Source of the DNA: Neophaeotheca triangularis
Taxonomy: Eukaryota
Length of the DNA: 64,000 nucleotides
Reading direction: 5' to 3'
Assembly (NCBI GenBank): GCA_054600435.1
Contig: BAAIJX010000020.1
Location: 310,001 to 374,000, forward strand
Under the pieces are notes generated by a model. It searched no databases. It was given only the letters and a program-made list of their open reading frames with translations, and had not been told where the DNA came from. The translations under genes and the position numbers were made by a program. Below are positions 47,081-62,957 of this stretch, piece by piece (positions within the stretch are counted from its first letter, which is position 1; every line of letters begins with the position of its first letter).

Positions 47081-49711
47081 CTAATCCTCCAACAAAGCCT
47101 CAGCATACCTCCTCTCCGCCACCCTCCGCATCACTCCCCTCGGCGCCCGACAGCCGGTGAATAGCTCAAACTGCGCAAAAGCCTGCTCAGGCAGCATATC
47201 AAACCCATCCATCAAAACCCAGCCCTCATCCGCCAAAGGCCGTATTTGCAACACCACGGGCGTCACTGCTGGTTTCTGAGCTAGCTCTACTACCACTCCT
47301 CCCGTTGGACTGTGGAGCCAGTGCTTCGGGAGCGTGAAATTCGGCGCTTCGGAACCGTCGGTGGAGATTGCCGGAATGCCCACGACGATCATTGTCGGGG
47401 GTGCCAAAGCTCGTGGCCAGGCGTCGGTGAGGCTGTCCATGACACGTATCTGTGCGTTTCCGGGCTCGACGCCGGCGAGGGTGCTGCGAGTGGCCACGAG
47501 CTTCGTGTAGTGGTCCACAAGCGCTTGGGCGTTGCTTTTGATGCGGTTCCACACCATCACGTTCTTGACGCCCAGCGAGAGCATCGAGTAGACGGCTGCG
47601 CGCGCCATGCCGCCGGCGCCACAGACTAGGCCCGTGCTGTGAGGCCGGACGGAGTTGGCCGGGGAGAGGCCTTTGCGTAGGCAGGCGCGGATGCCTATCC
47701 AGTCGCTGTTGTCGCCGTAGAGGGCTTTGACCGGGCCGCGACGGTTGCGCTGCTGGATGATGGAGAGTTCAGAGGGGATGGCTTCGGCGCCGTTGGCGTC
47801 TTTCCCGAGCTCGCGGATGGGGATGATGGTGTTGACGGCGCCAATGGCCCGGGCGTGGGGGCTTAGGGCGTCAATGAGAGGGATCACGTTGGCTTTGAAA
47901 GGCTGCGCGATGGCTGCGCCGCCGAACGTCTCGGCTTTCATGATTTTTGTCAGGTCTTTCAGGGTTTGTGAGGAGTGTGCTGCGTATGCGTGCGGCATTC
48001 CACAGGCTTGATATGCGGCGTTGTGCATGGCTGGTGATGTGGAATAGGCGACTCTTGCACCATAGACCGTGAATTGCATTGGCTCCTGCAAAAAGGTAGC
48101 ATATCGAGCCTGGATTAACGATGGTGCGGTGGACAACGCAGTTTCAGGCCCGTCGGTCTGGTCGCTTGAGCGAGGTCGTACTGGTTGCAAGACTTTGTTG
48201 AAACAGCGAGAGCTTCGTCCGTATGACCCGCTACAATAGAGACTAAGCGTAGGCCGCGCATGCTCGCGTTCGATAGATTGCCGGAAAGTATGCATCGTAA
48301 AGCAATCATCGTGCGAATGCGCAGGAAGCACCAATCTCACAACGTCGCAACCAAGACTCAATGCATGCAAGAAGGCTTCGCTGCAGTCTCGACTCAGCCA
48401 GCCTTGGGTAGGTCTTTCAGTCCAAGTCTGCGCGCCAATGATCTTCGTGCCTCCTTTACATCGCAGAAGCCGCCGCAGGCTTTTGGCTTCCATGTCCAAT
48501 GCAACAGTCACAAACTCCGGTCCAAGTCGAAGCGATGTGTCTACAAGACGCAGAGCAGTGGCGTGGTCGTTTTGACTGACAACGGAATCTATCGTCAATG
48601 CAATCGGAAGGATGGTCATGCGTCGTACAATTGCGAAGGCCTTGGAGACTTGCACATCCGAAGATACACGAGAGTCATCGATGGCGATCTCGAGCAAGTC
48701 GCACCCTACTTGAGCGTCCTCGAGATCCAGGGAGCCGGAGAGCAATTCTGAAATGTTCACCCTGAGTGCATGCGTGTAGGACAAGTCCTCCAATGGTATC
48801 TGGGCCAATGGGTAAGCAGAGCGATGGGATGGTCCGCGGCTATGGTCGCCGAAGATATTTCTGAGGAGTTTCAAGAAGTCATGCTCGACACCTTTCAAGG
48901 TCAAAAACGGCTGAACGGAGCGCCTTTGATTCGGAGAGCTTTCGTCATAGTTCTGTTCCGAGGCTGAGGAGGAAGGCTTCTTTTTGGTAGTGTTGAGATA
49001 GCTGAAATTGGAGCATGCTCGCACTCGTTTCATTCGAGATCTGGCTTGCTCCGAACCAGCTCTTTCTCGACCCTCTTCGGCTCCGAGCTCATTGCGCGGG
49101 CCAGTACGATCTGTCGTAACGTGGATAACGGGGTGCTTTTCTGCGAATAACTGGATCTTTTGACAGCTGGCACCGTCCAGATCGGTGAGAGATGCTACAA
49201 TGACAGCATTGGTCTCGTGTGATAGCAGCGTCCTCTCAACGATCTCAGTCCGCTTTCGAGCGTATGTTGAGGGCCCATGCTGCCTGCAAAAGTCATCCGT
49301 TGATGCTCCAGTAGCTTTGGCGAAGGCGTAATCTATTTCGACCACGTTGCGACCATATGCGATTGCCGCTAGTATAGCGAGTGTGCTCTTGCCTACGCGT
49401 CTGTCGCCTACCAGGAGAATAGATGCGTTGGCGTGGAAAGATTCGGGACATGGTCGTTTTAAAACGGCCTCAGCTGTAGAATTCAGTCAGCTGGGAGCTC
49501 GGGGACGGTAATATGGGTCGAGGAGTATACAGGCATTGGTTCCAGATAATACTTCAGGGCTCTTGTCAGGGGTTGTGGGTGAAGAAGTGCGCGAGGGGCG
49601 CCAGGTCGAGGTCGTCGGCGCTGCTGCGGTGTCGATTTGGGTTCCTGGGCTTGCTTCTCGCATTTGCGCGTATGTGCGCTTGAGCGAGCGGGTTTTGCCA
49701 CCGTCGGACAT
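47081..49711 (-). CDS. qutR: Quinate pathway repressor QutR/QA-1S-like (shikimate kinase-like + DHQase I-like + shikimate dehydrogenase-like); probable intron 49530-49474
   Basis: P-loop-like VGDRRVGKST, SPAMHNAAY, QPFK, IGAVNT, DNSDWIGI, GAGGMARAA and PEQAFAQFELFTG. Divergent from a QutA-like gene. Confidence 0.85.
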
Positions 49712-49852
49712 TATGTGTGGATTGTCTGTTCATCCATCGAGTTTTGACAACAGTCGAGAATGACAAACACAGCCTATTAGTGGTCAAGGATAAGGTGGCT
49801 TGCAGACAATCAAGTCAAGTGAACTACTACTGTACTCCCGTCTTTTCTAGCC

Positions 49853-49868
49853 GGGACTGGGTTTACCC
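49853..49868. promoter_or_regulatory. Candidate QA-1F/QutA binding site GGGACTGGGTTTACCC
   Basis: 12/16 match to the Neurospora QA-1F consensus GGRTAARYRYTTAYCC, flanked by CC/GG, in the qutR-qutA divergent promoter. Confidence 0.45.
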
Positions 49869-50063
49869 GGCTTCTCGGCGTACATTATCGATGTTGCGGG
49901 GTTACATGTTGCTGACCGGATATCTCTTCAAGAACCTCATACCTAAGGTATGTTACTGTACCTAGCCTAAGCTAATCCATTCGTCAATTGGCCCCCCGAA
50001 AGTGGGAAATTACTTTGCTGTTTGGTTGGAAGGCTCCTAGTTGGCAGGCAATCGGTCTATATA

Positions 50064-51797
50064 ATGCCAACAACGACCGGAGACAACAACCCACGCACGC
50101 CACGGGGAAGCAAGAGGCCAGCCCCAGATCCCGCACGGAGAGATAGTACGCTCGCCAATTCGCAGGCGAAACGCACGAGAGTGACGAGAGCGTGCGATTC
50201 GTGTCGAGCAACTCGCGAGAAATGTGACGGCAAACGTCCAATGTGCGGCACTTGCGAAACCCAGCAGAGATCCTGCGCCTGGGATGAACCATCAAAGAAG
50301 CGTGGAATCCAACCCAACTACATCAAGTCCCTCGAGTTGACCCTAGCATGGCTCTTCAGCCGATTTCCCGCCTGCGAGGAGCACCTGGCAAAATGCCTTC
50401 CCGATGTTGACGGGCCAGCCTACAAGCTCATCGGCAGCAAGGACGCGGTAGCGGCTGAGGACCTTCACCAAGCCTGGCGCGCTGGTATTGTGAGTAAACA
50501 GTTGGAACAAGTCCTCTCCGGGGCTGCAGTAGACCAGCCCACCCCTATACAGTCCGTTCAAATTTCGGTACCTTCTACACAGAGACTGGACCAAGTGGTC
50601 GCCTCGTCGAATCCTGGAGTCGAGGAGAGTGCGTGCACGCAACCCTCTACAGCAGAGCTGCCCGACAATGCTTGGACGCTGCTCGAATATTACTTTGCGT
50701 ACACCCACAGCTGGCTTCCGTTTGTTGGCAAGCACGAGCTACTAAAGGCAATGTATTCCCTCCCTACTGGAACTCGCCTCGAAGATACCGTTGCCGCGGA
50801 CCACACCGACCTGTTCAGCATCTTTGCCGTAGCAGCAACGCAGATACATCGTGGTCAAGGAGGCACGCCACCAACACAACTGCAAGCGGATGCCAGGAGA
50901 CTCTTGGGCCAGCAGTTCGACCAGACCTCTTCCATCACCAGCTACCTCCTTCATGCGTTACTCGACATGTTGGATAATCGCCATCTAAGCGCATGGCTTC
51001 ATCTCGGGACAGTGCAGCGTCTCTTGTCATATCCACATCCGATCAACAAGGCGAGCTCGTCTCCCCTGGGGGACCGCTACAAGCGGGTCAACATTGCAGC
51101 AGCTTTACTTGAAAATGCGTTGGCTGCAAAATTGTCCACCGTTGCTCAGTTCGGCGTGGCGGAGACTACACAAGCTCATTTTGTTAGCGAAGAAGGAGAT
51201 GAAGAATGGGCACCATGGAAAGACCCACTGTACAATTCGAGTCCGGCTCTGCAAAAGTCCCCAGTGCAATCATGCAGCACTTTCAACCGACTGATCCGCA
51301 TGCTACTGAGCGATCGCGAGCCCTCGGATGACATTCGGACAGCACCCATGAACTCTGCAAGCAACCTTGTCTCACAGCTGTTGCGCAATGCTTGTCAACC
51401 CTGCGATAGACAACGACCAGCCACAATTGTCGCTGGATTTCGAAACACCGACATTCACATTTTCCCAGGCTCCGGTGGTGAGCCCGCCAGTGGACAACAC
51501 CATGAGAGTGGTTCAGCCTCCCGAGACCAGCCCTCACAGCCGGGTTTTGTCGACACGACGATGCTAACCGCTCCTCCAAACATTGACAGTAGTAACGATC
51601 ACATCGAGCCTCAAATGTCGGGAACTGATGATATTGGTATGGCGCAACAAACCGACAACATGGCGTTCCCGGTTCAAGACAATGCCCTCATCGACTTCAC
51701 GAGCTACAATGACATCTTTTGCAACTATACAGATAGCCAATTTCTGAGGAACTTGGGGTTCCGCCCTGACTTCAACGATACGGACTTTCCGGAGTAA
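50064..51797 (+). CDS. qutA: Zn2Cys6 transcription factor, quinate utilisation activator QutA/QA-1F-like
   Basis: RVTRACDSCR..REKCDG..P.C..C......C.....KKRG....YI..LEL and C-terminal SQFLRNLG. Head-to-head with the qutR-like gene. Confidence 0.82.
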   Translation: MPTTTGDNNPRTPRGSKRPAPDPARRDSTLANSQAKRTRVTRACDSCRATREKCDGKRPMCGTCETQQRSCAWDEPSKKRGIQPNYIKSLELTLAWLFSRFPACEEHLAKCLPDVDGPAYKLIGSKDAVAAEDLHQAWRAGIVSKQLEQVLSGAAVDQPTPIQSVQISVPSTQRLDQVVASSNPGVEESACTQPSTAELPDNAWTLLEYYFAYTHSWLPFVGKHELLKAMYSLPTGTRLEDTVAADHTDLFSIFAVAATQIHRGQGGTPPTQLQADARRLLGQQFDQTSSITSYLLHALLDMLDNRHLSAWLHLGTVQRLLSYPHPINKASSSPLGDRYKRVNIAAALLENALAAKLSTVAQFGVAETTQAHFVSEEGDEEWAPWKDPLYNSSPALQKSPVQSCSTFNRLIRMLLSDREPSDDIRTAPMNSASNLVSQLLRNACQPCDRQRPATIVAGFRNTDIHIFPGSGGEPASGQHHESGSASRDQPSQPGFVDTTMLTAPPNIDSSNDHIEPQMSGTDDIGMAQQTDNMAFPVQDNALIDFTSYNDIFCNYTDSQFLRNLGFRPDFNDTDFPE

Positions 51798-52113
51798 ATA
51801 GTGTAGCTTCTTGGCTAGGGATCGAAGGACTGGACTTTTGCCGGTGGTCGCCATTGCCTCGCTCCGTCCGGAATAGTCATACTTCACGCCTGTGAATCTC
51901 TTGCTTCAGTCCATGCTCTTGCTCGCTGTCGATTCGGTCGGCTGTGAGCCTTTACGACGGCATACGACGGCCGAATGACTTTTTTCATTCTCGAAGTATG
52001 AGACGATTTGTCCCATGGAGGCATACACTAACTCTACCACTTCAACGCTGGACCCTGTATGGTAATCCTCTCGATCCGGAACCGCCTTGAAGCGTTCTCG
52101 CTGTTCCAACGCA

Positions 52114-53193
52114 TCAAAGCTGTGCCCTTCCCAGTGGAGCTCCAGTCTCACTCTCGCTCGCTTCCTGTACCGGCTTCTTGGAAAACGAAAACTCCCTATC
52201 GATCATCGCCCGTCCCGCAGCTGCTCTCAGAGCAAGCTTTTGGGGACATTGTGGACTACTGTCAGTCAGATCTCGATGGAAGATCTCTGAGCTGACCCAT
52301 CCGCTGTACTTCTTTTCTTCGAAGAGTACCTTGAGGATGGCATGCACCGGGAGATAGCCGCCCCGGTTCTGCTCGCCGTAGAAGAGACGACAATTCCGCG
52401 ACCAGCTCATGCGTGGGGGCTGGGAAGCCTCATAAAACTCGTTGCCCTCGACCAGCGGCTGCGGAAGGTATTCGGCGTCCGCGATCTGGATGTAGACAAT
52501 CTTGTCAACGTCAACATCGTCGGTCAGTCGACGCATAGAGCTGTCAAAGTCCACTTGGCCGTCGGGGTTGCGCCTATCGCTTGCAGCGGGATCTGCGTAA
52601 ACGCGGCCGGCCATGTTGAAGGTATCAAGGCACAGACCAAAATTCGCACGATCCACAGCCTTCACAATCTCCCACGATTTCTCCCACGTATCAACATACG
52701 TCCCCCAAGCCAGAGCTTCGTAAGCAAACCAAATTTCTGGATCCAAATCCGCCACTTCTCGTAAATCGCCGACAATCAGCTCCATATCCCCACTCGCCTC
52801 GGATTCCTGGAGGAAAGTAGAAGGGATAGCGATAACGTTTGCGCCCAAAATCCTGCACATCCGAACCCACAGATTCATTTCCTCCACTCTGCGGCCGTGC
52901 TCTCGGCGGTCCCTCAGCCCTTCGTAATGCATGAAAGGTTGCAAGCACATGACTGTAAGACCTCGTTCGTCGCACAACGAGCGCACAGCTCGCGCGGCAT
53001 CAATCATCTGGTCCGCTTCTGGGATTGTCGATTGGTCGTTTATTCCTGCTAGTCTTCGAGCAAAATAGAGTAGGTCTTCATAGAAGAGTTCAATATCTAA
53101 GCCGTGGAGGGCAGCTTGGTCCAGTTTGCTTTCTAGGCTGTGCACCCAGGCTCTGCCTAATGAGTGGGAGCATATCGCTGATTGGCAAGGCAT
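52114..53193 (-). CDS. qutC: 3-dehydroshikimate dehydratase QutC/QA-4-like (xylose isomerase-like TIM barrel)
   Basis: SLGR...HSL..KL..A, IELFYEDL, LQPF..YEG, YEALAWGT, GLCLDTFN, QIADAE and RMSWSRNCRLF. Confidence 0.85.
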   Translation of the reverse strand: MPCQSAICSHSLGRAWVHSLESKLDQAALHGLDIELFYEDLLYFARRLAGINDQSTIPEADQMIDAARAVRSLCDERGLTVMCLQPFMHYEGLRDRREHGRRVEEMNLWVRMCRILGANVIAIPSTFLQESEASGDMELIVGDLREVADLDPEIWFAYEALAWGTYVDTWEKSWEIVKAVDRANFGLCLDTFNMAGRVYADPAASDRRNPDGQVDFDSSMRRLTDDVDVDKIVYIQIADAEYLPQPLVEGNEFYEASQPPRMSWSRNCRLFYGEQNRGGYLPVHAILKVLFEEKKYSGWVSSEIFHRDLTDSSPQCPQKLALRAAAGRAMIDREFSFSKKPVQEASESETGAPLGRAQL

Positions 53194-53525
53194 TTGCTTG
53201 GCAGATGCCTGTCGTCGATGGGTTTGCAGATGTGAGAGCTGGCCTCTCGAACGGTGGCGAGGGAGACAGTTGAGCTTTGTAGTCTGGTCAAGCGTGTAAT
53301 ACGAAGTAAATCGATCCGTTGTAGGGTCTTGATCGACTGCCGCACAAGATGAAAGCATCAGAGTATATGTCTCCAATCTAAAAAGGTACGAACCGACCAG
53401 TTGCGTTGGCACATCTAGTCAAATACGCTTCTCCGAGATTACTCGATCAAGACAGGCGGAGGAGAACACTGACCCGGTTGCTAGCCATGTTACTGCTCGA
53501 CGACCCGCCAAGCTCTCGAAGAACC

Positions 53526-53541
53526 GGATGAGACTTTACCC
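53526..53541. promoter_or_regulatory. Candidate QA-1F/QutA binding site GGATGAGACTTTACCC
   Basis: 13/16 match to GGRTAARYRYTTAYCC, about 330 bp upstream of the qutC-like ATG. Confidence 0.55.
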
Positions 53542-53559
53542 AGTGCACTCGCTTACGGC

Positions 53560-53765
53560 CCACCTTGCTTAAATAGCTTGATATTAAGGATATACTACTA
53601 AGTTTATTCTTTATAGCTATGGAGTGTAAAGTGTAAAGTCTACTAGAGAGGCCTAGTAGAGATACCTAAGGTACTACACCGTCTCTACTAATCACGTGTC
53701 TAGCACGTGTCTAGTAATCACGTGTAGCAACTACAGTCATAACAGTTACTTCTAACCTTACATTT
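53560..53765. repeat. AT/TpA-rich patch with short inverted repeats and three CACGTG boxes; possible RIPed TE/MITE remnant
   Basis: TAGTAGAGA/TCTCTACTA inverted repeat, GTGTAAA duplication, and CACGTG at 53693, 53704 and 53719. Confidence 0.4.
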
Positions 53766-53963
53766 CCGTATATGTACCCGTACCTGTACTTATCTCCGCT
53801 TCTTTATCCTTCCCCCACGTCTCCGCACATTACGTCGGCAAATTGTCCGATTCTCCGGAGTCCTAGCAAAGACATTCGACCTCTCTAGCTGCGTCCCACT
53901 CACAACCTCCGAGAATCGCACTCGCATCACCACCACAAGACGTCTAAAGTAGTTCCGGCGACG

Positions 53964-56057
53964 ATGGATGGATATAATCTGCCGGTGGAAAATCTCGATT
54001 CAGGCACCACTGTAGAGTCGATAGGCTCTTCTGCGAACAATGACGATAGACCGGCTGGACTCCATAAACCAGGACCCATCCGTGCTACTGGTGGTGCGGG
54101 AAGGAAGTCACGAGCATGCACAGCTTGCAAGCAGCTCAAAATGAAATGTGAAGTACCTGAAGGATCTCGTAGATGTACTCGATGCGAAAAGCGCGACCTC
54201 GACTGCCGGCTGGCTAGAGGCGTAACCAACCGACACATGCTGCCTTCGGAACATGAACGGAAGATGAACGAGATGTGCGAAGCTGTAGGTCAACTACAGC
54301 AGACCATGAACCTTTTGCTCCAGCAAAAGTATGGTCCGTCACTAAATGCACCACGCGAAAGGTCTGGGCCTTCGATCTCGCCCCGCTCGGTAGTGAGCAA
54401 TCAAGCCTCTGCTCAGCGGTCGCTGGATTTTACGCGAATGGCTATGACTAGAGAGAACTCCCCCGAGGCAACGAATCAAGATCAATCAGGACAGCACTCC
54501 GTACTGGTCACGGAGCCTATGGGAAGCCTCTACGAGATCACAAGGCTAAGGAATCTCAGAAGCAATCAGTCAAAGGTTGCTAGGCCTGCGGGGCAGCGTG
54601 AGCAAGAAGACGACTTCATCTCACGTGGTGTGATAGATGGTGCCGAAGCCGAGGATCTTTTTCAACATTTCCTCGAGTCACTGAACCACTACTTATGGAT
54701 CGGACTGGAAGAGATTCATCCTACTCTCAATTCCGTCCGAAAGTCGTCTTCGCTGCTGACCGCAACGATCTTGACTGTGACAGCTCTGCACAGGCCAACT
54801 AGTGTTGTCACCTTTGACAATTGTTACACGGAATTTCTCGCACTAGTCTCATCATCAATGTTCGACCGCTATCATTCCGTCGACGACGTGAGGGGCTTGT
54901 GCATAGCGGCGTTCTGGCTATCCGACGTGTCCTGGAAATTGTGCGGCCATGCGATTCGGATAGCGACAGAGTTAAACATACATCAATCTTTCTACCGCGC
55001 ACTCGATGGCGACCGTGATCATTTCTTACGGGCCCGGCTCTGGTATATGTTGTACGTTTGCGATCACCACTTCAGCATTGCCTATGGACGTCCTCCCACC
55101 ATTAGCGAAAGCCTTCAGATCCGTGAGCATGAGCTTTTCTTGCAGAGCCCGCTCGCCGGCCCGCTAGATATGCGAATCCTGTCGCAAGTATCGCTTTTCC
55201 AGATCCTCACCAAAGTACATGAACGCTTCGCTGAACAGCGACTACCACATCAGCCCGGACTTGCACTTTTGCCAGAGAGCGCATTCTCCGAGCTTCGCCA
55301 ATTCAATCTGGAGATCGATCAATGGCGCATACACTGGCAAGTTCGTCAAGTTGACAATGCATACATCGGCGCCTTTCCGCCCATGGGCAATGTGCTTTAC
55401 TCGTACTTTGCGAAATTACAACTCAACTCCCTCGCTGTTCGAGGCATTAGCAAAAGTCAAGGTAGCCTTTCTACCGAGCGCAAGGAATTTGCCAACATGG
55501 CAGTGTCAGCCGCAACGAGCGTTCTTACCTACATTCTCGATGAGCCAGATCTTAGGAGATGTCTAGTCGGCACACCTCTTTACGTCCACACGATGATAGC
55601 TTTCGCCTCTGTTTTCCTAATGAAAATGGCGCCGAGGGGCAGAGCAATGGGCGTGCAGCTCGAAATCGAATTTGTATGGAACTTGATTGATCGAATGATC
55701 CACTTGCTGCAGTCCAGCATCACGAGCGATCGACACCTGCTGTATTACATAGCCGCTGGATTAAACAACATGCTTACCAAGCTGAAAGAGACGAGTGTCC
55801 CGGCGCCTACCTGTTCACAGTTTGATGACGCCGGACAGTCTTCAAGAGGCCAAGTCGAGTCCTTCGTTCCGCCGGCAGGTACTTCGTACCGCGCAGACTG
55901 GCAACAATACTTGCCAGAGACCCAGGATGGGACGCTTCTGGAGCAAGATGTTTTAGATGGCAACCACATATACGAGGCTTTCGGGAGCGAGCCAGCTGGT
56001 GGGGTCTACAATCTGCTAGCCAATCAATTCTCGTACCTGGACGGTCTTCAATTCTAG
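53964..56057 (+). CDS. Zn2Cys6 fungal-specific transcription factor
   Basis: RACTACKQLKMKC........C.RC......C zinc cluster and middle-homology region (RARLWYMLYVCDHHFSIAYGRP). Confidence 0.92.
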   Translation: MDGYNLPVENLDSGTTVESIGSSANNDDRPAGLHKPGPIRATGGAGRKSRACTACKQLKMKCEVPEGSRRCTRCEKRDLDCRLARGVTNRHMLPSEHERKMNEMCEAVGQLQQTMNLLLQQKYGPSLNAPRERSGPSISPRSVVSNQASAQRSLDFTRMAMTRENSPEATNQDQSGQHSVLVTEPMGSLYEITRLRNLRSNQSKVARPAGQREQEDDFISRGVIDGAEAEDLFQHFLESLNHYLWIGLEEIHPTLNSVRKSSSLLTATILTVTALHRPTSVVTFDNCYTEFLALVSSSMFDRYHSVDDVRGLCIAAFWLSDVSWKLCGHAIRIATELNIHQSFYRALDGDRDHFLRARLWYMLYVCDHHFSIAYGRPPTISESLQIREHELFLQSPLAGPLDMRILSQVSLFQILTKVHERFAEQRLPHQPGLALLPESAFSELRQFNLEIDQWRIHWQVRQVDNAYIGAFPPMGNVLYSYFAKLQLNSLAVRGISKSQGSLSTERKEFANMAVSAATSVLTYILDEPDLRRCLVGTPLYVHTMIAFASVFLMKMAPRGRAMGVQLEIEFVWNLIDRMIHLLQSSITSDRHLLYYIAAGLNNMLTKLKETSVPAPTCSQFDDAGQSSRGQVESFVPPAGTSYRADWQQYLPETQDGTLLEQDVLDGNHIYEAFGSEPAGGVYNLLANQFSYLDGLQF

Positions 56058-56111
56058 TATGACAAACCGCTATACAGTTGCAAACTGCGCATTCCCGTAG
56101 CTACAGCCTCA

Positions 56112-58042
56112 CTACAGGTCGTACCTGGCCACTTTACCAAGTTTTCGCCCTCCAAGCCTCCTACCGGCAGTCGTATGCTCTCCGTGGTGTTCCACGCAGG
56201 ATACATCCAGTGGCGGGCCTTTGCCGATGTCTACGTGCTCGCTGAGTTCGACGTCGCTCGCATTGCTCTCCAGCTTCTTGTTGGCCCTTCTGAGCGCTAG
56301 ACTCAGGAATGTCGTCGACACCACGATGATAACGCATAGGGCCAAATTCACAGACCATGCTGCCACCCCCTGTCAGTCTTCGCTCATGGCAAGGTTGCGA
56401 TGTTCAGCTTACCCATAGTATACCTTGGGCCGTGACTCTCCGGATAGAGATACGGCGTCCAGACTTGTGCTGAGTTTCCTATCGCATTGTTCATGGCCAG
56501 AGCAATGGCTCGCTTCTTCTGCGGTCGCGCGCTGATGTTGCTCATCCAGGCGTTGCTGATTTGGAAAGCCCCATAGGTGCCGCCTAGCATCAGGAACAAA
56601 GCGAAGTAACGAGCAGCGGTGTTCGTTGTAGCAACGGTAATGACAATACCAACGATGGCGCCCAAAACCGGAAACGTTATATGTGGCGATCGCTTCGAAG
56701 TACGATCCGAGTACCAGGTGTTCAGGATGCAGACCAAAGTCGTGAAGAGGTAAGGCTGCGTGGGTTGGTTAGTTTGGCGGGGCTAGCGGGCGACATCTCT
56801 CGCTTGACACTCCTTTTACTCACCGGAGCCGTAAGCAGGAGGCTGTTGATCGTATTGTAGCCGAAATTATTGACTAGCGTGGGTAGGAAATTGGTCAACG
56901 AAGCCACGGCCTGGAGGCAGAACTGGCCAAGTACGCAAAGCCAGACCCGGTAGTCCTTGACGGCCATCCCAAATGCAGCTTTTGTTCCGATATCTTCCTC
57001 TTCTTCGCCGGCATCCTCCATCAAACGGACAACGCCCAGCGCACGCTCGTCGTCTTTCAGCCATTTTGTCGTCGCCGGCCAGTCGGGTATCAGAAAGGCA
57101 GCCGCAGCGCCGAATACAACGGTAGCGATCCCTTCGGTGATGAACAGCCACCTGAACAGCGTTTCGCATTAGGATCGGACTCTAACTTTCGTTCATGATG
57201 AGTATAAGACGTACCTCCAGCTCGCAATGCGGTGATTCGCAAATGCCGCCGCAATGCCTGCAGCATATAGTCCGGCAAATGCACCAGATAGCATAGCGGC
57301 GCAGAAGAAAGCTCCGAGTCGCAGCCCGAGCTCCTTTCGCGTATACCAACCTAATTGAAAGCGTTAGTTGAGTCGCGTGGTCGGCGCACATGGTACCTAC
57401 CAGAGAAAAGAAAAGCCACGCCGACGAAGAATGGTGCCCTAATGAACCAAATTAGCGACTGGATATCCAGAAGCACCGAGCGGCGAGGTTGCATACTCTG
57501 TAATCCCAAGGAAGAATCGACAAGCCGCTATGCCGGCGAAGTTCTGCACGGCACCACTTAACCCAGAGACCAAACCCCACGCCACCATCCATCCGGAAAG
57601 GTAGTATCGCGGCCGTTTGACCTTGGAGAGAAGCATGTTCGACGGTACTGGTTTCATGTATCAGCACACGAGGCTAGTGAATCCAAGGCCGTCGACGTAC
57701 CTTGGAACAGGACATAGCCGATGAACGTCAGGCTAAGCACGATGTTGTACTGAACTCCTACGAGATTGATGTCATCTTCGATCCCTTGGATACGAGCCTG
57801 TGGAAGGGCGTTCCTAGGCCACCATCAGCAGACGTTGCGCGAAATTGAGGTGGTCTGGTTCTTTACCTGTCGACGTAATTCAAAATGTACATGATGAAAA
57901 GGATCGGGAGCAGCCTCAGATCAATCTTGCGGACCAGCTTCTTCTCTCGGTGCCTTCGCTCTTCCGGTGACCATGCTGCGATCTTTGACGACCATTCAAC
58001 CTCTTGGGTCATGGGAGCGTCGAAGTGATGGTCTGGACCCAT
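56112..58042 (-). CDS. MFS transporter, anion:cation symporter (Dal5/Tna1-like); about 7 introns
   Basis: EKKLVRKIDLRLLP, NYVDR, QVPSNMLL, WRWLFITEG, PD.PATTKWL and WYSDRT. Exon junctions approximate. Confidence 0.9.
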
Positions 58043-58740
58043 GGTGCTAAAAGATCTCTGACTGGTACACTTCTGATGGCTCGAGGCAAGCCTGTCTTGA
58101 ATTGGGAGGGCTGTGATTTAGTTATTCGCAAACAATGCCACTGGGGAGAATGATCTATCTCCTGGAAGGACACGAGGGAAACGGGGCTTCGTTATATCTC
58201 CAAGTACAGCACAGAGCTAGCAACCGGCCTTTCAGCGCATTTTCCGGACCCCAGTAGGCTCCTGACTGGCCTTGGCCCTGCTGACCCAAGTGTTCGAAAT
58301 AGACTCCTTGATACCTGGTCATCAAGGCACATTATACGTTACATTCTGGGTAGGTGGTCCTTGGCCCTCCGCACTGCGCTCCACAAGTTTGACCCTAGTG
58401 GAGTCGAAACGTGGAGAAGTCCAAGTCTCCATGCCGGAGGCATCGGGAAATCGGTCAATAAGCCGGAAGCATGTCAGCAACATCTACTTAGCAACGAGAA
58501 GCCGCGAATAGGTGAGCAATGCCGCTTATATTGTTCAATAAATGCCCAGTCAAATGCCCAGTCGCCGTCGGCAATCCGGCGTACTACGACCGGTCTGTTC
58601 TCGTGATGGTCGATGGCTTTTCCCCTTAACATATAAACACTGCTCGAGAACATATACAAACATTCTTTCCCAGTAACGTACCCACCATTCTACGCCTCTA
58701 GCAACAGACTATTTACAAATCGGAGAAGACTTCTACCACC

Positions 58741-60271
58741 ATGACAAGCCTTTCAACCAAGCTTGACGCCCTCGAGGCAGCTGGCAAGCCCATCCAAGTC
58801 GGCCTCATCGGTGCGGGCAAGTTTGGGTCGATGTTGTGGGTACCATACTGTAGAATCCAATATCCATCGAATGCAGGCCGCTAACAACTCGACAGCTTAT
58901 CTCAATCACATCGGAGCACTGGCATGCGTCTCGCGGCGATTGCAGACCTCTCTGCAGACCGAGCACGAGCAGCCCTGGAACGTGTTGGCTACCCTGCAGA
59001 TCGCTACGATGAAACCGGCACCATGTCTATCGAGGAAGGCATGCGAGCCGGGAAGACTGTCATCACAACCGACTCCGCGGCCTTGATCGCCACTCCGGGC
59101 ATTGATGTCGTTTTGGAAGTCACCGGATCTCCTGCCGCTGGAGTGCGCCATGTCCTACTCTGCTGCGAACACAAGAAGCACATAGTCATGGTAAACGTCG
59201 AGGCCGATGTTCTGGCTGGCCCACTACTCGTAAGGAAAGCTCGGGAAGCTGGTATCATCTACTCAATGGCGTACGGCGACCAACCAGCCCTTATTGCGGA
59301 AATGGTAGACTGGACCAGGACTGCCGGCTTTGATGTTGTGTGTGCTGGCAAGGGCACCAAGCACTTGCCGCAATTCCACCATTCGACGCCGGATACAGTC
59401 TGGTCGCATTACGGCTTTACCGAGGAGCAATTGGCGAATGGTGATTTCAACCCTCAGATGTTCAACTCGTTCCTTGACGGCACGAAAAGCGCGCTCGAGA
59501 TGTCAGCTGTTGCCAACGGTTGCGGGCTGAGTCCCCCCTCTGATGGCTTGGAATTCCCTCCTTGCGGTATTCACGACTTGCCGACCGTACTGCGGCCGAA
59601 GTCCGACGGCGGACATCTGGAGAAGAAGGGCACGGTAGAGGTCGTCTCGTCATTGGAGATCGACGGTCGTCAAGTACAAAACGACATCAGATTCGGCGTT
59701 TTCGTAGTGATCGAAGGTTAGTTTGCACGCTGTTGGGGACCTCCCCCTTTAGTTCATCAACTAACCGCTCCTAGCACCTGGCGACTACCAGCGCGAATGC
59801 TTTGCCCAGTATGGCATGAAGACAGACAGCACAGGACGTTACGCAGCTCAATCGAAACCCTACCACCTGATCGGACTCGAGCTCGGATTTTCAGTTGCCA
59901 GCATCATGTGCCGAGGCGAGCCTACCGGCCAAACGAAGACTTGGGCTGCCGACACGGTAGCAACGGCGAAACGAAATCTCAAAGCCGGGGAAAAGTTGGA
60001 TGGCGAAGGCGGCTTCATGGTCTATGGCCGCATCATGCCCGCGGAAGCTTCGCTCGCCATTGAGGGTTTGCCGATTGGCCTCGCACATGGCTTAGTGCTC
60101 AAAGAAGACGTCAAGCAAGGTCAAGGGCTTAGCTGGCAACATGTCGAATGGAGCGAGAAGAGCCAGGCAGTTGCCGTAAGGAGAGAAATGGAAGCCGTGT
60201 TCCGGAAGGAGATGAAGGGAAGTCAAGTCAACGGCCATACAAACGGCGTCAACGGCGTCAATGGCCACTAA
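58741..60271 (+). CDS. NAD-binding oxidoreductase with C-terminal SAF domain (COG4091-type 'homoserine dehydrogenase-like'); introns 58836-58895 and 59717-59774
   Basis: GKPIQVGLIGAGKFGSMF, VNVEADVLAGP, AYGDQP, AGKGTK, NPQMFNSFLDGTKS, PYHLIGLE and AKRNLKAGEKLDGEGG. Confidence 0.88.
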
Positions 60272-60317
60272 GACCACACTCATCCTGTAACGTAGAGTAG
60301 GTAAGAGCATTCCCATA

Positions 60318-60663
60318 TCATTCAAATATCGCCACTGCCCTGATTGGACTCCTACTCCTACTCCTACCCCTAAACTTTAACGGAAACCTAGCAAACCTAA
60401 ACCGCCCCTTGCCCACAACCTAATCAATACCATTCAAGCCTTCCATATACGTGATACCGCGCTTACTACAAGCATTGTGAGCGAGGAAGTTCAACTCCTC
60501 TTCGGGAGCTGGGGAGACGGCTTCTATGCCGAACATCTTGCAACCTTTATCGGCGAGCTAGTACACGCTTTCAGGTAGAGCTTACGGGAGAGGTCGGTGA
60601 TTTGAGGCTTGCGATGGGACTGCGTAGCGAGCTTTCGGGCGTGGAGGCTGCCACAGCGATTAT
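60318..60663 (-). pseudogene. Internally deleted, RIP-like mutated cyclase / kynurenine formamidase (KynB-like, PF04199-type) pseudogene
   Basis: Manual translation gives N-terminal piece ITDLSRKLY fused out of frame to PESVY*LADKGCKMFGIEAVSPAPEEELNFLAHNACSKRGITYMEGLNGID*VVGKGRFRFARFPLKFRGRSRSRSPIRAVAIFE*. The DLS and PLK..G..SP.RA.A motifs are cyclase-family hallmarks. Confidence 0.8.
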
Positions 60664-60894
60664 ATGTATTTAGTCTACCTAAAATGTTATAAATTGCCTC
60701 CTTCTATAAATTGAACTACCCCCTTGGTCAAAATTTTGCGCTGAAATTCTCACCTTAATTAGACTAAAACGCCTCGCTGTAGTCGTAGTATTGTTAATAG
60801 GCTATAAGGTTTGTAAAATGTTAAAGATGAATTTCAAAGTAATCGAGGTAGTCGACTTGTAGTCTTGTACTCATATCTACATTGTACGATATGA

Positions 60895-62957
60895 TTAACT
60901 CTCCGATAGAGGTACTTCCTCATACTTCGGCTTAGTAGCACGTCTATCCCTGAGTTCCCAAAACTTTTGAACAATAATCTTCCCAATCGCCCACACGCCG
61001 ACTAAACTGAGTAGTGATACTAAACCGAGTAAGATCGGATGCGACGGAGACCCTAACATAGCCTTCTCGGGACGGGTTTGGGGCGCCGCATTCACAGTCG
61101 TACTATTGACCATTTCCACCTTAGCTTCCTCCGAGCGACCTAAGACTTTCTCGTCTTTGTCGAGAGCTTCTGCCCATATCGGTCCAGCCCCGTGAGGAAT
61201 GATGAACACAGTTTCAAAACCGGTTCTGTTAGCTGTGCCTAGGGACCCTCCAGCCTTGGAATGGAAACTCCAGCTTCGATATTCGGTCGCGCCGTTCCAA
61301 GACACGTAAACAGCAGCACTGCCGCCTTCGCCATGGCCCAAGACTCGGATATCAGGCTTCGTGTCGGGCATGCCTACCCAATGCTGTTTGTAGGCGCGAT
61401 AAGTACCGAATCGATCGCTCAGCCATCTTGCTTCCATGATAACCTCATCATCTTCGGTGTGCTCGGAGAGGTACCCGGCATCTGTCCAGGCCATGAAGAC
61501 ATTGCCGTTTGGTAAGATCTGCATTGAACCGCGCCTGTCGGCGTACGCTCCATCTGGCCGTTCATAAGACTTCAACTTCCTAGCCTTGAATTCCTCGCCT
61601 GCCTTGTGGTCGAGTTCGATGGTAAGACCGCGAGAACGGTCGTGAGTAGCTGGCTGATATTCTCTACCTTCTTTGCCCGCGGCGTTGTCTAATATGCTGA
61701 TCACGGACCGATCTTTCGAATGCTCAAGGTAGCGGACGTGGTGCTGCCTGGAGAATGCAAGGTTGTCTTCCATGGTGAAGTCATTCAGCCTACCAGTGCC
61801 GGCTAGTCGCCAGATAACATGGCCGTCTTTCCCGTCTACCAGGAGTAAAGCGTCGAGATATCGAACAGATGCGAGATAGTTGCCCTCCGGGGTTTTGGAC
61901 ACTGAGTTGGCATGGCTGCGAAACGTCAGTTTTCTGGCTTTCCGAGTATGTGCGAGTACTTGTGAAGCAGACTCACAATGCATCCCAAGGACGGCGCTTC
62001 GAGTAATGCGGTGGGTTGGGGGGCCCGGGGTGCTTCGAGCCATGATACGAGCTTTCGTTCAACTTTACATGGTCATGAACCTTCCAGTCAAAGATGATTT
62101 CACCGGTCTGAGTATCCAACTCCCTGAATCCATCGGTGCGGGTCCAAATGTCGCCTTTGAGGCCTAAATCTGCAGCACTGAGTTTCTGCGTGTCGTGGGT
62201 CATGACCAATGTCGTACTGCCGTCATCCTTGCTGCCGTCCGGTAGAACGAAGAATTCATGCTGGTTGAGGAATGTCGCATCTTCCTCGATGAGTATCGAG
62301 TGCTCGATATCGTAGGATTTATTCAGAAAGAATCCCGCGCCACAGTCAGGCTTGGGAAACTCGGCACTTCTGTACAACTTAGACGTTAGCTCGTCAGATC
62401 AAACCAGGCCGTAGCTGCTACCTGGCGAGCGCTTCTTCGGGGTTGACTTGCTTCACGTTGCCCGTCAGAACTGGATGACCTTGATACTCAGCGACGCCAA
62501 AGTCGAATACTATCCGGTTGTTGGTAAGACAAGCACCCGACCAGACGAGCTCCTAATGTGCACACGAATCAGCTCAGCCACCTAATTGGCGACAGTAGTG
62601 CTTGGCGATAGCTTGCATACCCCGTCGTTGTCGTAGATTGTTGGACCGACTTGGCAAGGAACCCATTTGGCATCGTCCAAATGATTTCCAGCGAACCGAT
62701 AAGGTCCGAGGAACCAGAAGCCCGGCGCCACTTTGTCTTTCTGGTGTTTCGTGACTTGCCATCTGGGCGGCATCAAGTCTGGCCGCTGCTCTTGTTGGTC
62801 AGCATGGATTGGGAGGGGCAATGGGGGGAGGTAACCTTGTGTAGAAGGCACCTACAGTCACAAATCTGTGCAGATCATCGGCGGCATGAAGGCCAGTGTC
62901 TGCCACTACCAAAACCAGAGAGAGCGCAAGAACGAAGACCAACGAGTTTGAGTACAT
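60895..62957 (-). CDS. Arylsulfotransferase (ASST-like) with signal peptide and C-terminal TM anchor; multi-exon
   Basis: RPDL.PP, GPTIYDNDG.LVWSG, NQHEF, H.NSV, QHHVR, GSMQILPNGN, YRAYK..W and VSWNGATE. Confidence 0.88.

What the first reader, a model, noticed from the sequence alone, without database searches (positions are those of the whole stretch)
53964..60663. Candidate uncharacterised catabolic gene cluster: Zn2Cys6 TF + ACS-type MFS + bacterial-type NAD/SAF oxidoreductase + (dead) cyclase-family hydrolase
Seen: four adjacent genes arranged like a fungal nutrient-utilisation cluster. The transporter and oxidoreductase share a ~700-bp divergent promoter rich in CGG/CCG triplets (e.g. 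CCGGAGGCATCGGGAAATCGG near 58434), a TF lies next door, and a cyclase-family gene is convergent with the oxidoreductase, only ~46 bp from its stop. Established: ACS-family MFS proteins move organic anions, and cyclase/KynB-family proteins are metal-dependent amide or ring hydrolases. As far as I know, COG4091 proteins are mainly bacterial and have no assigned reaction. Inference: an uptake-oxidise-hydrolyse pathway for an unknown small acid or heterocycle, possibly acquired from bacteria and since given introns.
Basis: partly seen in the sequence, partly recalled or inferred. Interest (0 to 1): 0.72.

Follow-up and report, generated by a model that had tools for sequence, protein, structure and literature searches.

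The report
Fungal acid-uptake cluster with orphan dehydrogenase
Many moulds keep a three-gene kit (regulator, acid transporter and a bacteria-derived enzyme from a family with no known reaction) that probably lets them eat a small sugar acid, while the fourth gene flagged here is only a broken leftover of a neighbour.

Summary
Three of the four genes form a real, intact unit: a Zn2Cys6 regulator, an ACS-type MFS transporter and a 470-aa oxidoreductase. The enzyme is a DLO2 protein, an uncharacterised sister clade of the isoprenoid enzyme DXR-II (GDQP, not GDEP). Regulator and enzyme lie 2-5 genes apart in 9 named genomes from three fungal classes (pairs partly chosen by shared contig). Fungal copies form one clade nested in Proteobacteria. 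The promoter is not CGG-rich overall, but the 13-mer ATCGGGAAATCGG recurs in three orthologous promoters.

The cyclase is not a conserved member. It is a deleted, stop-ridden relic, adjacent to the oxidoreductase in 0 of 7 species and 0 of 15 fungal contigs. Its full-length twin lies on contig C8 beside a reciprocal oxidoreductase relic.

Bacterial DLO2 genes sit with acid transporters and, in 3 of 78 genomes, beside tetronate (OtnK/OtnC/OtnI) operons; an earlier scan note saw a similar link on other, bacterial DNA. Best reading: import and NAD+-oxidation of a small sugar acid (0.6; a tetronate about 0.3). Substrate, expression and binding are untested. New variant of a known kind.

The parts
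53964..56057 (+). Zn2Cys6 transcription factor, 697 aa, single exon, intact; presumed activator of the unit
   Evidence: PF00172 + PF04082; 78% to Hortaea KC349_g8502; homologues 2-5 genes from the oxidoreductase in 9 genomes
56112..58042 (-). ACS-type MFS transporter, 510 aa; exons 58042-57867, 57813-57701, 57647-57497, 57438-57401, 57350-57215, 57151-56824, 56755-56413, 56359-56112
   Evidence: model with 7 GT-AG introns and one terminal stop; MFS_1; TIGR00893; orthologue (66-74% in exon 7) divergent from the oxidoreductase in L087, L088, L146, L147; other genome paralogues at most 41%
58043..58740 (.). divergent promoter of transporter and oxidoreductase
   Evidence: sequence; CGG/CCG count not above shuffles
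58442..58454 (+). conserved 13-mer ATCGGGAAATCGG (CGG-N5-CGG direct repeat), candidate TF site
   Evidence: shared with L146, L087, L088 promoters; the 11-mer core occurs in 7 of 166 loci, all fungal; 8 copies in the 25.4-Mb genome vs 7 for the reversed control
58741..60271 (+). DLO2 (DXR-II-like, COG4091) NAD(P) oxidoreductase, 470 aa; exons 58741-58835, 58896-59716, 59775-60271
   Evidence: PF03447 + PF21135 + PF08666; PDB 3UPY/3UPL E 1e-37; DLO2 signature; single full copy in genome; tree
60031..60572 (.). segment also present on G000 contig C8 (about 78% identity over 560 columns), spanning the 3' ends of both oxidoreductase and cyclase
   Evidence: contigs of runs X1 and X2 carry both copies
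60318..60652 (-). cyclase/KynB-fold pseudogene relic: C-terminal part with two TAG stops, an internal deletion of about 478 nt at 60573 (removes the HxGTHxD motif and intron), and a 79-nt 5' remnant
   Evidence: 23 C>T or G>A vs 4 reverse changes relative to the C8 copy
53540..53760 (.). TpA-rich, RIP-like stretch at the left edge of the block
   Evidence: TA 34, AT 12, GC 0.40; no second copy found in genome
60660..60900 (.). AT-rich stretch at the right edge of the block
   Evidence: GC 0.32, TA 32

Best explanation
A three-gene nutrient-utilisation unit of filamentous ascomycetes. The Zn2Cys6 factor binds the CGG-N5-CGG site in the shared promoter (inferred) and switches on an ACS-type transporter that imports a small, non-phosphorylated polyhydroxy-carboxylate, most likely a four-carbon sugar acid (tetronate) or a close C4-C6 relative (inferred). 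The DLO2 enzyme, gained once from a proteobacterium by a fungal ancestor (tree shown, direction inferred), oxidises one hydroxyl with NAD(P)+ to an oxo-acid (inferred). One enzyme suffices because housekeeping enzymes take over, for example decarboxylation to dihydroxyacetone and a Dak kinase (speculative). The cyclase is a chance neighbour: an ancestral locus with convergent oxidoreductase and cyclase existed in two copies; C20 kept the three-gene unit and C8 kept the cyclase. Shown: gene models, family and clade, linkage, motif footprint, reciprocal relics. Not shown: substrate, reaction, expression, TF binding.
For: Linkage: TF-oxidoreductase 2, 2, 3, 5, 2, 2, 2, 2, 2 genes apart in 9 of 9 named genomes where both numbers were in hand; MFS orthologue divergent in 4 of 17 and TF in 3 of 17 fungal contigs with at least 2.5 kb upstream. 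Motif footprint. Tree: 32 rows labelled fungal are one clade (SH-aLRT 99), 100 with eukaryotic contig L095, inside proteobacterial DLO2. Bacterial neighbours: LysR, ACS-type MFS, TRAP, TctABC and KdgT acid transporters, class II and HpcH aldolases, AldA, tartronate-semialdehyde-reductase-like enzymes. In L228 one same-strand run reads DctP-DctQ-DctM-DLO2-OtnI-OtnK-OtnC-DeoR regulator with the three Otn genes over cut-off, and that genome has no LtnD or DenD over cut-off. DLO2 lies within 3 kb of OtnK in 3 of 78 genomes with both positions listed, with LtnD in the other two. DLO2 and OtnK co-occur in 86 of 401 genomes, odds ratio 2.9, not corrected for kinship or genome size. Lys193 and Thr229, which anchor fosmidomycin in DXR-II (PMC3847144), are Thr and Ser here, fitting an unphosphorylated substrate. 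The genome has 3 Dak1 loci and no DUF1537 kinase; PMC12994016 discusses dihydroxyacetone from 3-oxo-threonate.
Against: No biochemical or expression data. 75 of 78 genomes have DLO2 far from OtnK; most bacterial DLO2 genes stand alone. A second recurring context, GntR + PhyH dioxygenase + DLO2 (6 of 40 loci, plus L062), does not suggest a plain sugar acid. The otn-linked copies are only 51-55% identical to the fungal query, while the nearer bacterial set (54-68%) showed no recurring OtnK cluster. G269 already has LtnD and DenD. 13 of 17 fungal contigs lack the MFS and 14 of 17 lack the TF; Dothistroma, Fulvia, Zymoseptoria and Cercospora have the enzyme but are not among the 120 listed TF hits. 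PMC12994016 found only a trace of dihydroxyacetone from its 3-dehydrogenase. The 11-mer is present in L087/L088 although no TF orthologue lies in those loci.
Confidence: 0.6

Rival explanations
1. Oxido-isomerase: the enzyme keeps DXR-II-type chemistry in reverse (oxidation plus alpha-ketol rearrangement) on a branched, unphosphorylated acid such as 2-C-methyl-erythronate, apionate or hamamelonate, giving a linear product in one step.
For: Same fold as DXR-II (TM 0.86, 30% identity); Asp167, Lys191, Lys228 and Glu232 equivalents kept; a one-enzyme cluster suits a two-step enzyme; RuBisCO-like OiaX-type and transketolase genes near L030, L066, L233; ApnO is a precedent in another family (PMC13753588, passages).
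Against: Glu168 is Gln here; all 53 DXR-II rows have GDEP. That this Glu is a metal ligand is recalled, not read. Four DLO1/DLO2 proteins failed DXR complementation (PMC3847144). The OiaX hit is below cut-off.
Confidence: 0.15
2. Homoserine-dehydrogenase-like oxidation of a primary alcohol, or of a product of a PhyH dioxygenase, on a small hydroxy acid that is not a sugar acid (for example a dihydroxybutyrate), giving an aldehyde that a general aldehyde dehydrogenase oxidises.
For: Relatedness to homoserine dehydrogenase; AldA over cut-off downstream in L017 and L047 and aldehyde dehydrogenases in 6 of 79 mapped loci; GntR + PhyH + DLO2 in 6 of 40 loci.
Against: The otn operon placements need an oxo-tetronate product; no PhyH gene was seen beside fungal copies.
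Confidence: 0.15
3. First reader's four-gene uptake-oxidise-hydrolyse pathway, now split between C20 and C8, with the C8 cyclase doing the hydrolysis.
For: The two genes were convergent neighbours in both copies, and both copies show mainly third-position differences (19/5/3 and 19/9/3), so both genes stayed functional side by side for a long time. Same chromosome in Dothistroma, Zymoseptoria and P. fuligena (29 accessions apart). The three Rhizobiales-order genomes with a close cyclase all also hold DLO2. True KynB lies within 6 kb of DLO2 in 3 of 40 loci.
Against: Adjacent in 0 of 7 species and 0 of 15 fungal contigs; no hit of the fungal cyclase in 160 loci. In those three bacteria the genes are on different contigs, and DLO2 is in 133 of 401 genomes anyway. 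The KynB cases belong to a kynA/kynU/kynB operon. No motif upstream of the C8 gene. The C8 protein has Gly where 118 of 120 homologues have Glu and an N-terminal extension that bacterial homologues lack.
Confidence: 0.07
4. The unit is an extension of the adjacent quinate (qut) cluster and handles quinate or a derivative.
For: qutR-, qutA- and dehydroshikimate-dehydratase-like genes lie directly upstream.
Against: No qut hit in any of 160 related loci; in run X3 the qut genes and the oxidoreductase are on different contigs; the unit has its own TF.
Confidence: 0.03

Closest known systems
DXR-II / DRL (Brucella abortus, PDB 3UPL, 3UPY; PF21135, COG4091)
   Same: Rossmann + DRL catalytic + SAF architecture; E 1e-37 by sequence; TM 0.86 for a fungal orthologue model; 33% of P0002 to the NGR234 DXR-II
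   Different: GDQP for GDEP, Thr for Lys193, Ser for Thr229; separate clade; fungi use the mevalonate route (PMC3847144); paired with an anion transporter
DLO2 family of Carretero-Paulet et al. 2013 (PMC3847144)
   Same: Signature YGDQPALI.EMVDW...KGTK.LP..H.STPDTVW..YGF......GDFN.QMFN matches the Achromobacter/Bordetella rows; nearest bacteria are Methylobacterium, Herbaspirillum, Polynucleobacter
   Different: That survey covered bacterial proteomes and gave no function; here the gene is fungal, has introns, and sits in a TF + MFS unit
Bacterial tetronate catabolism (Ltn2D/LtnD, DenD, Ltn3D, OtnI, OtnK, OtnC; PMC12994016)
   Same: DLO2 occupies or flanks the dehydrogenase slot in three such operons
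   Different: Known tetronate dehydrogenases are other families (the paper has no mention of SAF, DXR, DRL or COG4091); the fungus has no DUF1537 kinase
Fungal Zn2Cys6 + transporter + enzyme utilisation clusters (qut/qa, DAL; recalled)
   Same: Local zinc-cluster regulator, divergent promoter with CGG site, permease and catabolic enzyme
   Different: Only one enzyme, of a family with no assigned reaction and of bacterial origin
Cyclase / KynB / isatin hydrolase family (PF04199)
   Same: C8 protein P0162 has HAGTHVD and matches 4COB, 5NMP
   Different: Window copy is a relic; P0162 is only distantly like true KynB (best E 2e-11 to solved structures) and its reaction is unknown

Membership tests
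DXR-II (DRL) | Rossmann + DRL catalytic + SAF domains and fold | tested here: met
DXR-II (DRL) | GDEP motif (Asp167-Glu168) and Lys191/Lys193/Thr229 substrate anchors | tested here: not met
   GDQP, Lys191 kept, Thr at 193, Ser at 229
DXR-II (DRL) | Falls in the DXR-II clade | tested here: not met
   GDEP plasmid proteins incl. NGR234 group apart from the 92-row clade holding the window protein
DXR-II (DRL) | Makes MEP from DXP; complements a dxr mutant | not testable with these tools
   four DLO proteins failed in the literature (PMC3847144)
DLO2 | DLO2 sequence signature (KGTK..., TPDTVW insert, DFN.QMFN) rather than DLO1 (GNIKG) | tested here: met
   by-eye comparison with supplementary alignment, part 5 of 11
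DLO2 | Groups with the paper's own DLO2 sequences in a tree | tested here: inconclusive
   tree used same-genus relatives (Methylobacterium, Polynucleobacter, Agrobacterium, Paracoccus), not the paper's accessions
ACS (anion:cation symporter) MFS | Similarity to TIGR00893 / HpaX subfamily | tested here: met
   3 of 4 window exons hit, best E 2e-12; whole-protein cut-off not testable on single exons
ACS (anion:cation symporter) MFS | Transports an organic anion | not testable with these tools
   family knowledge only
Zn2Cys6 activator | CxxC-x6-C-x5-12-CxxC-x6-8-C cluster and middle homology region | tested here: met
Co-regulated metabolic gene cluster | Conserved linkage across distant genomes | tested here: met
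   TF-oxidoreductase in 9 genomes, three classes; MFS identified in window, L087/L088, L146/L147 only
Co-regulated metabolic gene cluster | Co-expression and TF dependence | not testable with these tools
   needs RNA-seq and knock-outs
Tetronate dehydrogenase (LtnD, DenD, Ltn3D) | Sequence membership in these families | tested here: not met
   no NCBIfam ThreonDh or ErythonDh hit for the window exons; 'works like' remains open
Cyclase / KynB (window copy) | Intact frame with HxGTHxD metal motif | tested here: not met
   two stops, about 478-nt deletion

The most novel reading that the evidence does not exclude
The TF-MFS-DLO2 unit would then be an undescribed fungal route for such acids, acquired from leaf- and soil-dwelling Proteobacteria, and would show the ancestral activity from which DXR-II arose.
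Probability: 0.3. Interest if true: 0.78.

Novelty: new variant of a known kind. Interest (0 to 1): 0.56.

Why it matters
DLO2 was named in 2013 without a function, and I found no later assignment. The fungal unit reduces the problem to three genes with a candidate binding site, so a regulator knock-out plus a substrate screen can name the reaction. That would annotate a common bacterial family, add a carbon source to fungal metabolism, and bear on how the alternative isoprenoid enzyme DXR-II evolved. The two reciprocal relics also give a clean small example of a duplicated locus resolved by complementary gene loss.

Tried and rejected
CGG/CCG richness of the promoter: at chance level. Cyclase as conserved member: rejected. 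Link to the qut genes: no support. Catabolic homoserine dehydrogenase AnHSD (10.1101/2021.02.09.430557, parts 1-2 of 4 read): a 348-aa HSD without SAF domain, a different family. Ltn3D and ApnO papers: other folds, no mention of SAF/DXR/DRL/COG4091. Expression: no RNA holder listed, which is no evidence either way. Single-sequence structure prediction failed (pLDDT 34.5); the alignment-based one was used. First clustering of bacterial neighbours chained unrelated ORFs and was redone; ORF calls there are crude and miss some genes. Search by locus tags recalled from memory gave only a gene list. A last paper search with fungal genus names returned no listed paper containing 'SAF domain' (25 of 51,490 listed) and is weak. 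Other genome copies of the 11-mer are at background number and gave no clear downstream enzyme. A looser CGG-N5-CGG pattern occurs upstream of several unlinked fungal copies and of the C8 cyclase, so only the exact core is informative. Supplementary file 5 of PMC3847144 (complementation picture) could not be read.
Full report
Observation. The four elements are in the sequence. The regulator is one 697-aa exon at 53964-56057 with Zn_clus and Fungal_trans. The transporter is 510 aa in 8 exons with 7 GT-AG introns, 58042-56112 on the minus strand, ending 54 bp from the TF stop; 3 of 4 window exons tested match the ACS subfamily model TIGR00893. The oxidoreductase is 470 aa in 3 exons, 58741-60271. 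The cyclase is a relic whose stop lies 46 bp from the oxidoreductase stop; it scores TIGR03035 at E 2e-6 with X at the stops and misses Pfam Cyclase.

The promoter. CGG/CCG triplets are not enriched: 21 observed, 18.7 +/- 3.4 in 1000 dinucleotide shuffles, 297 reaching 21. But the 13-mer ATCGGGAAATCGG at 58442-58454 is shared with the transporter/oxidoreductase promoters of L146, L087 and L088. Its 11-mer core occurs in 7 of 166 loci, all fungal: the window's own, L087, L088, L107, L158 (one group of near relatives) and L146/L147 (a duplicate pair, two copies in the promoter and one upstream of the TF region). That is three independent lineages. The genome holds 8 copies in 25.4 Mb against 7 for the reversed control, about 2 in 10,000 per 700-bp promoter by chance. 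A CGG-N5-CGG direct repeat suits a zinc-cluster protein (family knowledge); binding is untested, and L087/L088 carry the motif without a TF orthologue in the locus.

What the enzyme is. It matches Brucella DXR-II (3UPY/3UPL, E 1e-37), and a model of the Dothistroma orthologue (78-row alignment, pLDDT 96) overlays 3UPL at TM 0.86. So COG4091 has one assigned reaction. PMC3847144 (abstract, background, passages, section 5 part 1, supplement 1 search and part 5 read) splits the family into DXR-II, DLO1 and DLO2 and reports that four DLO proteins failed DXR complementation. Its alignment has 53 GDEP and 71 GDQP occurrences; the window protein has GDQP and the DLO2 signature. Against Brucella numbering it keeps Asp167, Glu174, Lys191, Lys228 and Glu232, and changes Glu168 to Gln, Lys193 to Thr and Thr229 to Ser. 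The paper names Lys191, Lys193 and Thr229 as fosmidomycin anchors; that Asp167/Glu168/Glu232 bind the metal is recalled. It is therefore DLO2, not DXR-II.

Distribution and origin. The 120 best homologues listed (of 8000 scored) are 73-92% identical; the named ones are Dothideomycetes, Eurotiomycetes and Sordariomycetes. The best bacterial loci are 54-68%. In a 107-row tree (quick mode, SH-aLRT only; L145 dropped as short), 32 rows that I labelled fungal (two JGI proteins and two contigs by inference) form one clade at 99, at 100 with L095, a contig with eukaryotic genes, nested among Methylobacterium, Herbaspirillum and Burkholderia relatives. The exact donor is unresolved. The window protein is sister to Hortaea (92%). 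An intron near codon 32 is seen in 11 of 19 fungal contigs tested, one at codon 305 in 3, and several copies have none. One transfer followed by intron gain fits.

Linkage. TF and oxidoreductase numbers are 2 apart in Hortaea KC349, Lithohypha LTR05, Colletotrichum gloeosporioides, C. fructicola, Lophiostoma, Aspergillus unguis and Thozetella, 3 apart in Pestalotiopsis IQ-011 and 5 in Penicillium waksmanii: 9 of 9 pairs for which both numbers were in hand. Eight more pairs share a contig length but were not checked; in C. karsti and Rhizodiscina the listed TF hit (57%, 50%) is on another contig. The gene between them is identified as the MFS only in the window and L146/L147. Among 26 fungal metagenome contigs, 17 have at least 2.5 kb upstream: 4 carry the MFS orthologue and 3 the TF; L091 looks like a cluster with its middle deleted. 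The unit is ancient but patchy, and many fungi hold the enzyme alone.

The cyclase. It has a full-length twin, P0162 (261 aa), at about G000:C8:505396-506252. That twin is convergent with a roughly 200-nt 3' relic of the oxidoreductase, next to a 9-kb AT-rich, RIP-like block. The shared segment is 78% identical. Differences fall mostly at third codon positions (third/first/second 19/5/3 in the oxidoreductase part, 19/9/3 in the cyclase part), so both copies of both genes were under selection for most of their separation and decayed late. The window relic has two TAG stops, lost about 478 nt at 60573, and shows 23 C>T or G>A against 4 reverse changes, only 9 of them in the CpA context. Elsewhere the two genes are not neighbours: 917 accessions apart in Dothistroma, 121-125 in four Zymoseptoria strains, 29 in Pseudocercospora fuligena, and on other contigs or thousands of tags apart in P. 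eumusae, P. waksmanii, Pestalotiopsis 9143b and Friedmanniomyces. P0162 hits none of 160 loci, including 15 fungal contigs with at least 1 kb downstream. A 76% bacterial relative of P0217 sits with an amidohydrolase, an Asp/Glu/hydantoin racemase, a CN hydrolase and a dimethylformamidase-like gene. Against my reading: the adjacency did last in this lineage; all three bacteria with a close cyclase also have DLO2, on other contigs; and true KynB lies within 6 kb of DLO2 in 3 of 40 loci, as part of a kynurenine operon. P0162 has Gly where 118 of 120 homologues have Glu, so it may be impaired too.

Substrate clues. DLO2 is in 133 of 401 genomes sampled from the order of G001 and mostly stands alone. 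Where clustered, the pattern is regulator + acid transporter + DLO2: among 79 mapped loci LysR-type clusters in 14 and 6, ACS-type MFS in 9, TRAP in 8, class II aldolase in 10, aldehyde dehydrogenase in 6; KdgT + HpcH aldolase in L084; TRAP in 4 of 9 plasmid regions viewed with wide flanks, directly beside the gene. The sharpest case is L228: TRAP-DLO2-OtnI-OtnK-OtnC-DeoR regulator, with no LtnD or DenD over cut-off in that genome. L232 has DLO2 ahead of LtnD-OtnK-OtnC-OtnI-like; L233 has it convergent with the same operon. These are 3 of 78 genomes with both positions listed (48 OtnK matches were not listed). G269 also has DenD elsewhere, so DLO2 would serve a third acid there, for example D-threonate or L-erythronate (inference). 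An earlier scan note (e1-2644443) reported a like pairing with a DUF1537 kinase in a mycobacterium; it prompted this line and is not independent proof. A different context, GntR + PhyH dioxygenase + DLO2 in 6 of 40 loci, is unexplained.

Mechanism. The TF senses the acid, binds the 13-mer and induces import and oxidation. The fungus has no DUF1537 kinase but three Dak1 loci. An oxo-tetronate could decarboxylate to dihydroxyacetone; PMC12994016 (part 1, passages, section 6 read) discusses this route and saw only a trace. Confidence: unit real and co-regulated about 0.85; small polyhydroxy acid oxidised with NAD(P)+ 0.6; tetronate about 0.3; cyclase involved under 0.1.

Context. Upstream lie qutR-, qutA- and dehydroshikimate-dehydratase-like genes; none recurs near related copies. 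The block 53.5-60.9 kb has AT-rich edges. In run X2 its contigs have depth 56-65 against 101-112 for long flanking contigs; the tool warns that this is no copy number, so hemizygosity or recent insertion is only a hint.

Novelty. Searches for DXR-II/DLO, COG4091, SAF domain with catabolism, with fungal gene cluster and horizontal, and with sugar-acid terms listed no paper giving DLO2 a function or describing the fungal unit; the library lacks most subscription papers. The architecture is a known kind; the enzyme and probable substrate are new. Verdict: new variant of a known kind, interest 0.56.

Noticed in passing
window 47081-53418: Partial quinate cluster: repressor-like (DHquinase_I + shikimate DH domains), Zn2Cys6 activator-like and dehydroshikimate-dehydratase-like genes; no quinate dehydrogenase or permease ORF was recognised among the long ORFs listed.
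   Followed up: partly
G000:C8:505091-506252 (L003, L005): Full-length cyclase P0162 with an N-terminal extension resembling a mitochondrial presequence (by eye) and Gly at a position that is Glu in 118 of 120 homologues; fungal homologues are 70-72% like bacterial 229-aa proteins over the exon searched, so a second bacteria-to-fungus transfer is possible.
   Followed up: partly
G000:C14:230022-230032 (L169, L175): A full copy of the promoter motif lies about 400 bp upstream of a GPR1/FUN34/YaaH carboxylate-transporter gene; could be a regulon member or chance.
   Followed up: partly
window 53400-60865, run X2: About half the contig depth of the flanks over the TF-MFS-oxidoreductase block; possible presence/absence polymorphism.
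   Followed up: no
window 58741-60271: The enzyme is 92% identical to Hortaea werneckii but 78-81% to Dothistroma, Fulvia and Zymoseptoria, and the fungal subtree mixes classes (Aspergillus with Ilyonectria/Clonostachys); fungus-to-fungus transfer or hidden paralogy is possible.
   Followed up: no
L197, L200, L202, L203, L204, L205, L062: Recurring GntR + PhyH-family dioxygenase + DLO2 unit, with TctABC in two loci.
   Followed up: partly
L177, L178, L179, L084: A small ABM/NIPSNAP-type gene (annotated putative quinol monooxygenase) sits next to DLO2 in several acid-uptake operons.
   Followed up: no
L091:5395-7266: TF and oxidoreductase matches abut, both lacking their N-terminal parts, as if transporter and promoter were deleted.
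   Followed up: no
window 60895-62950: Arylsulfotransferase (ASST)-family gene on the minus strand right of the block; no hit near related copies.
   Followed up: no
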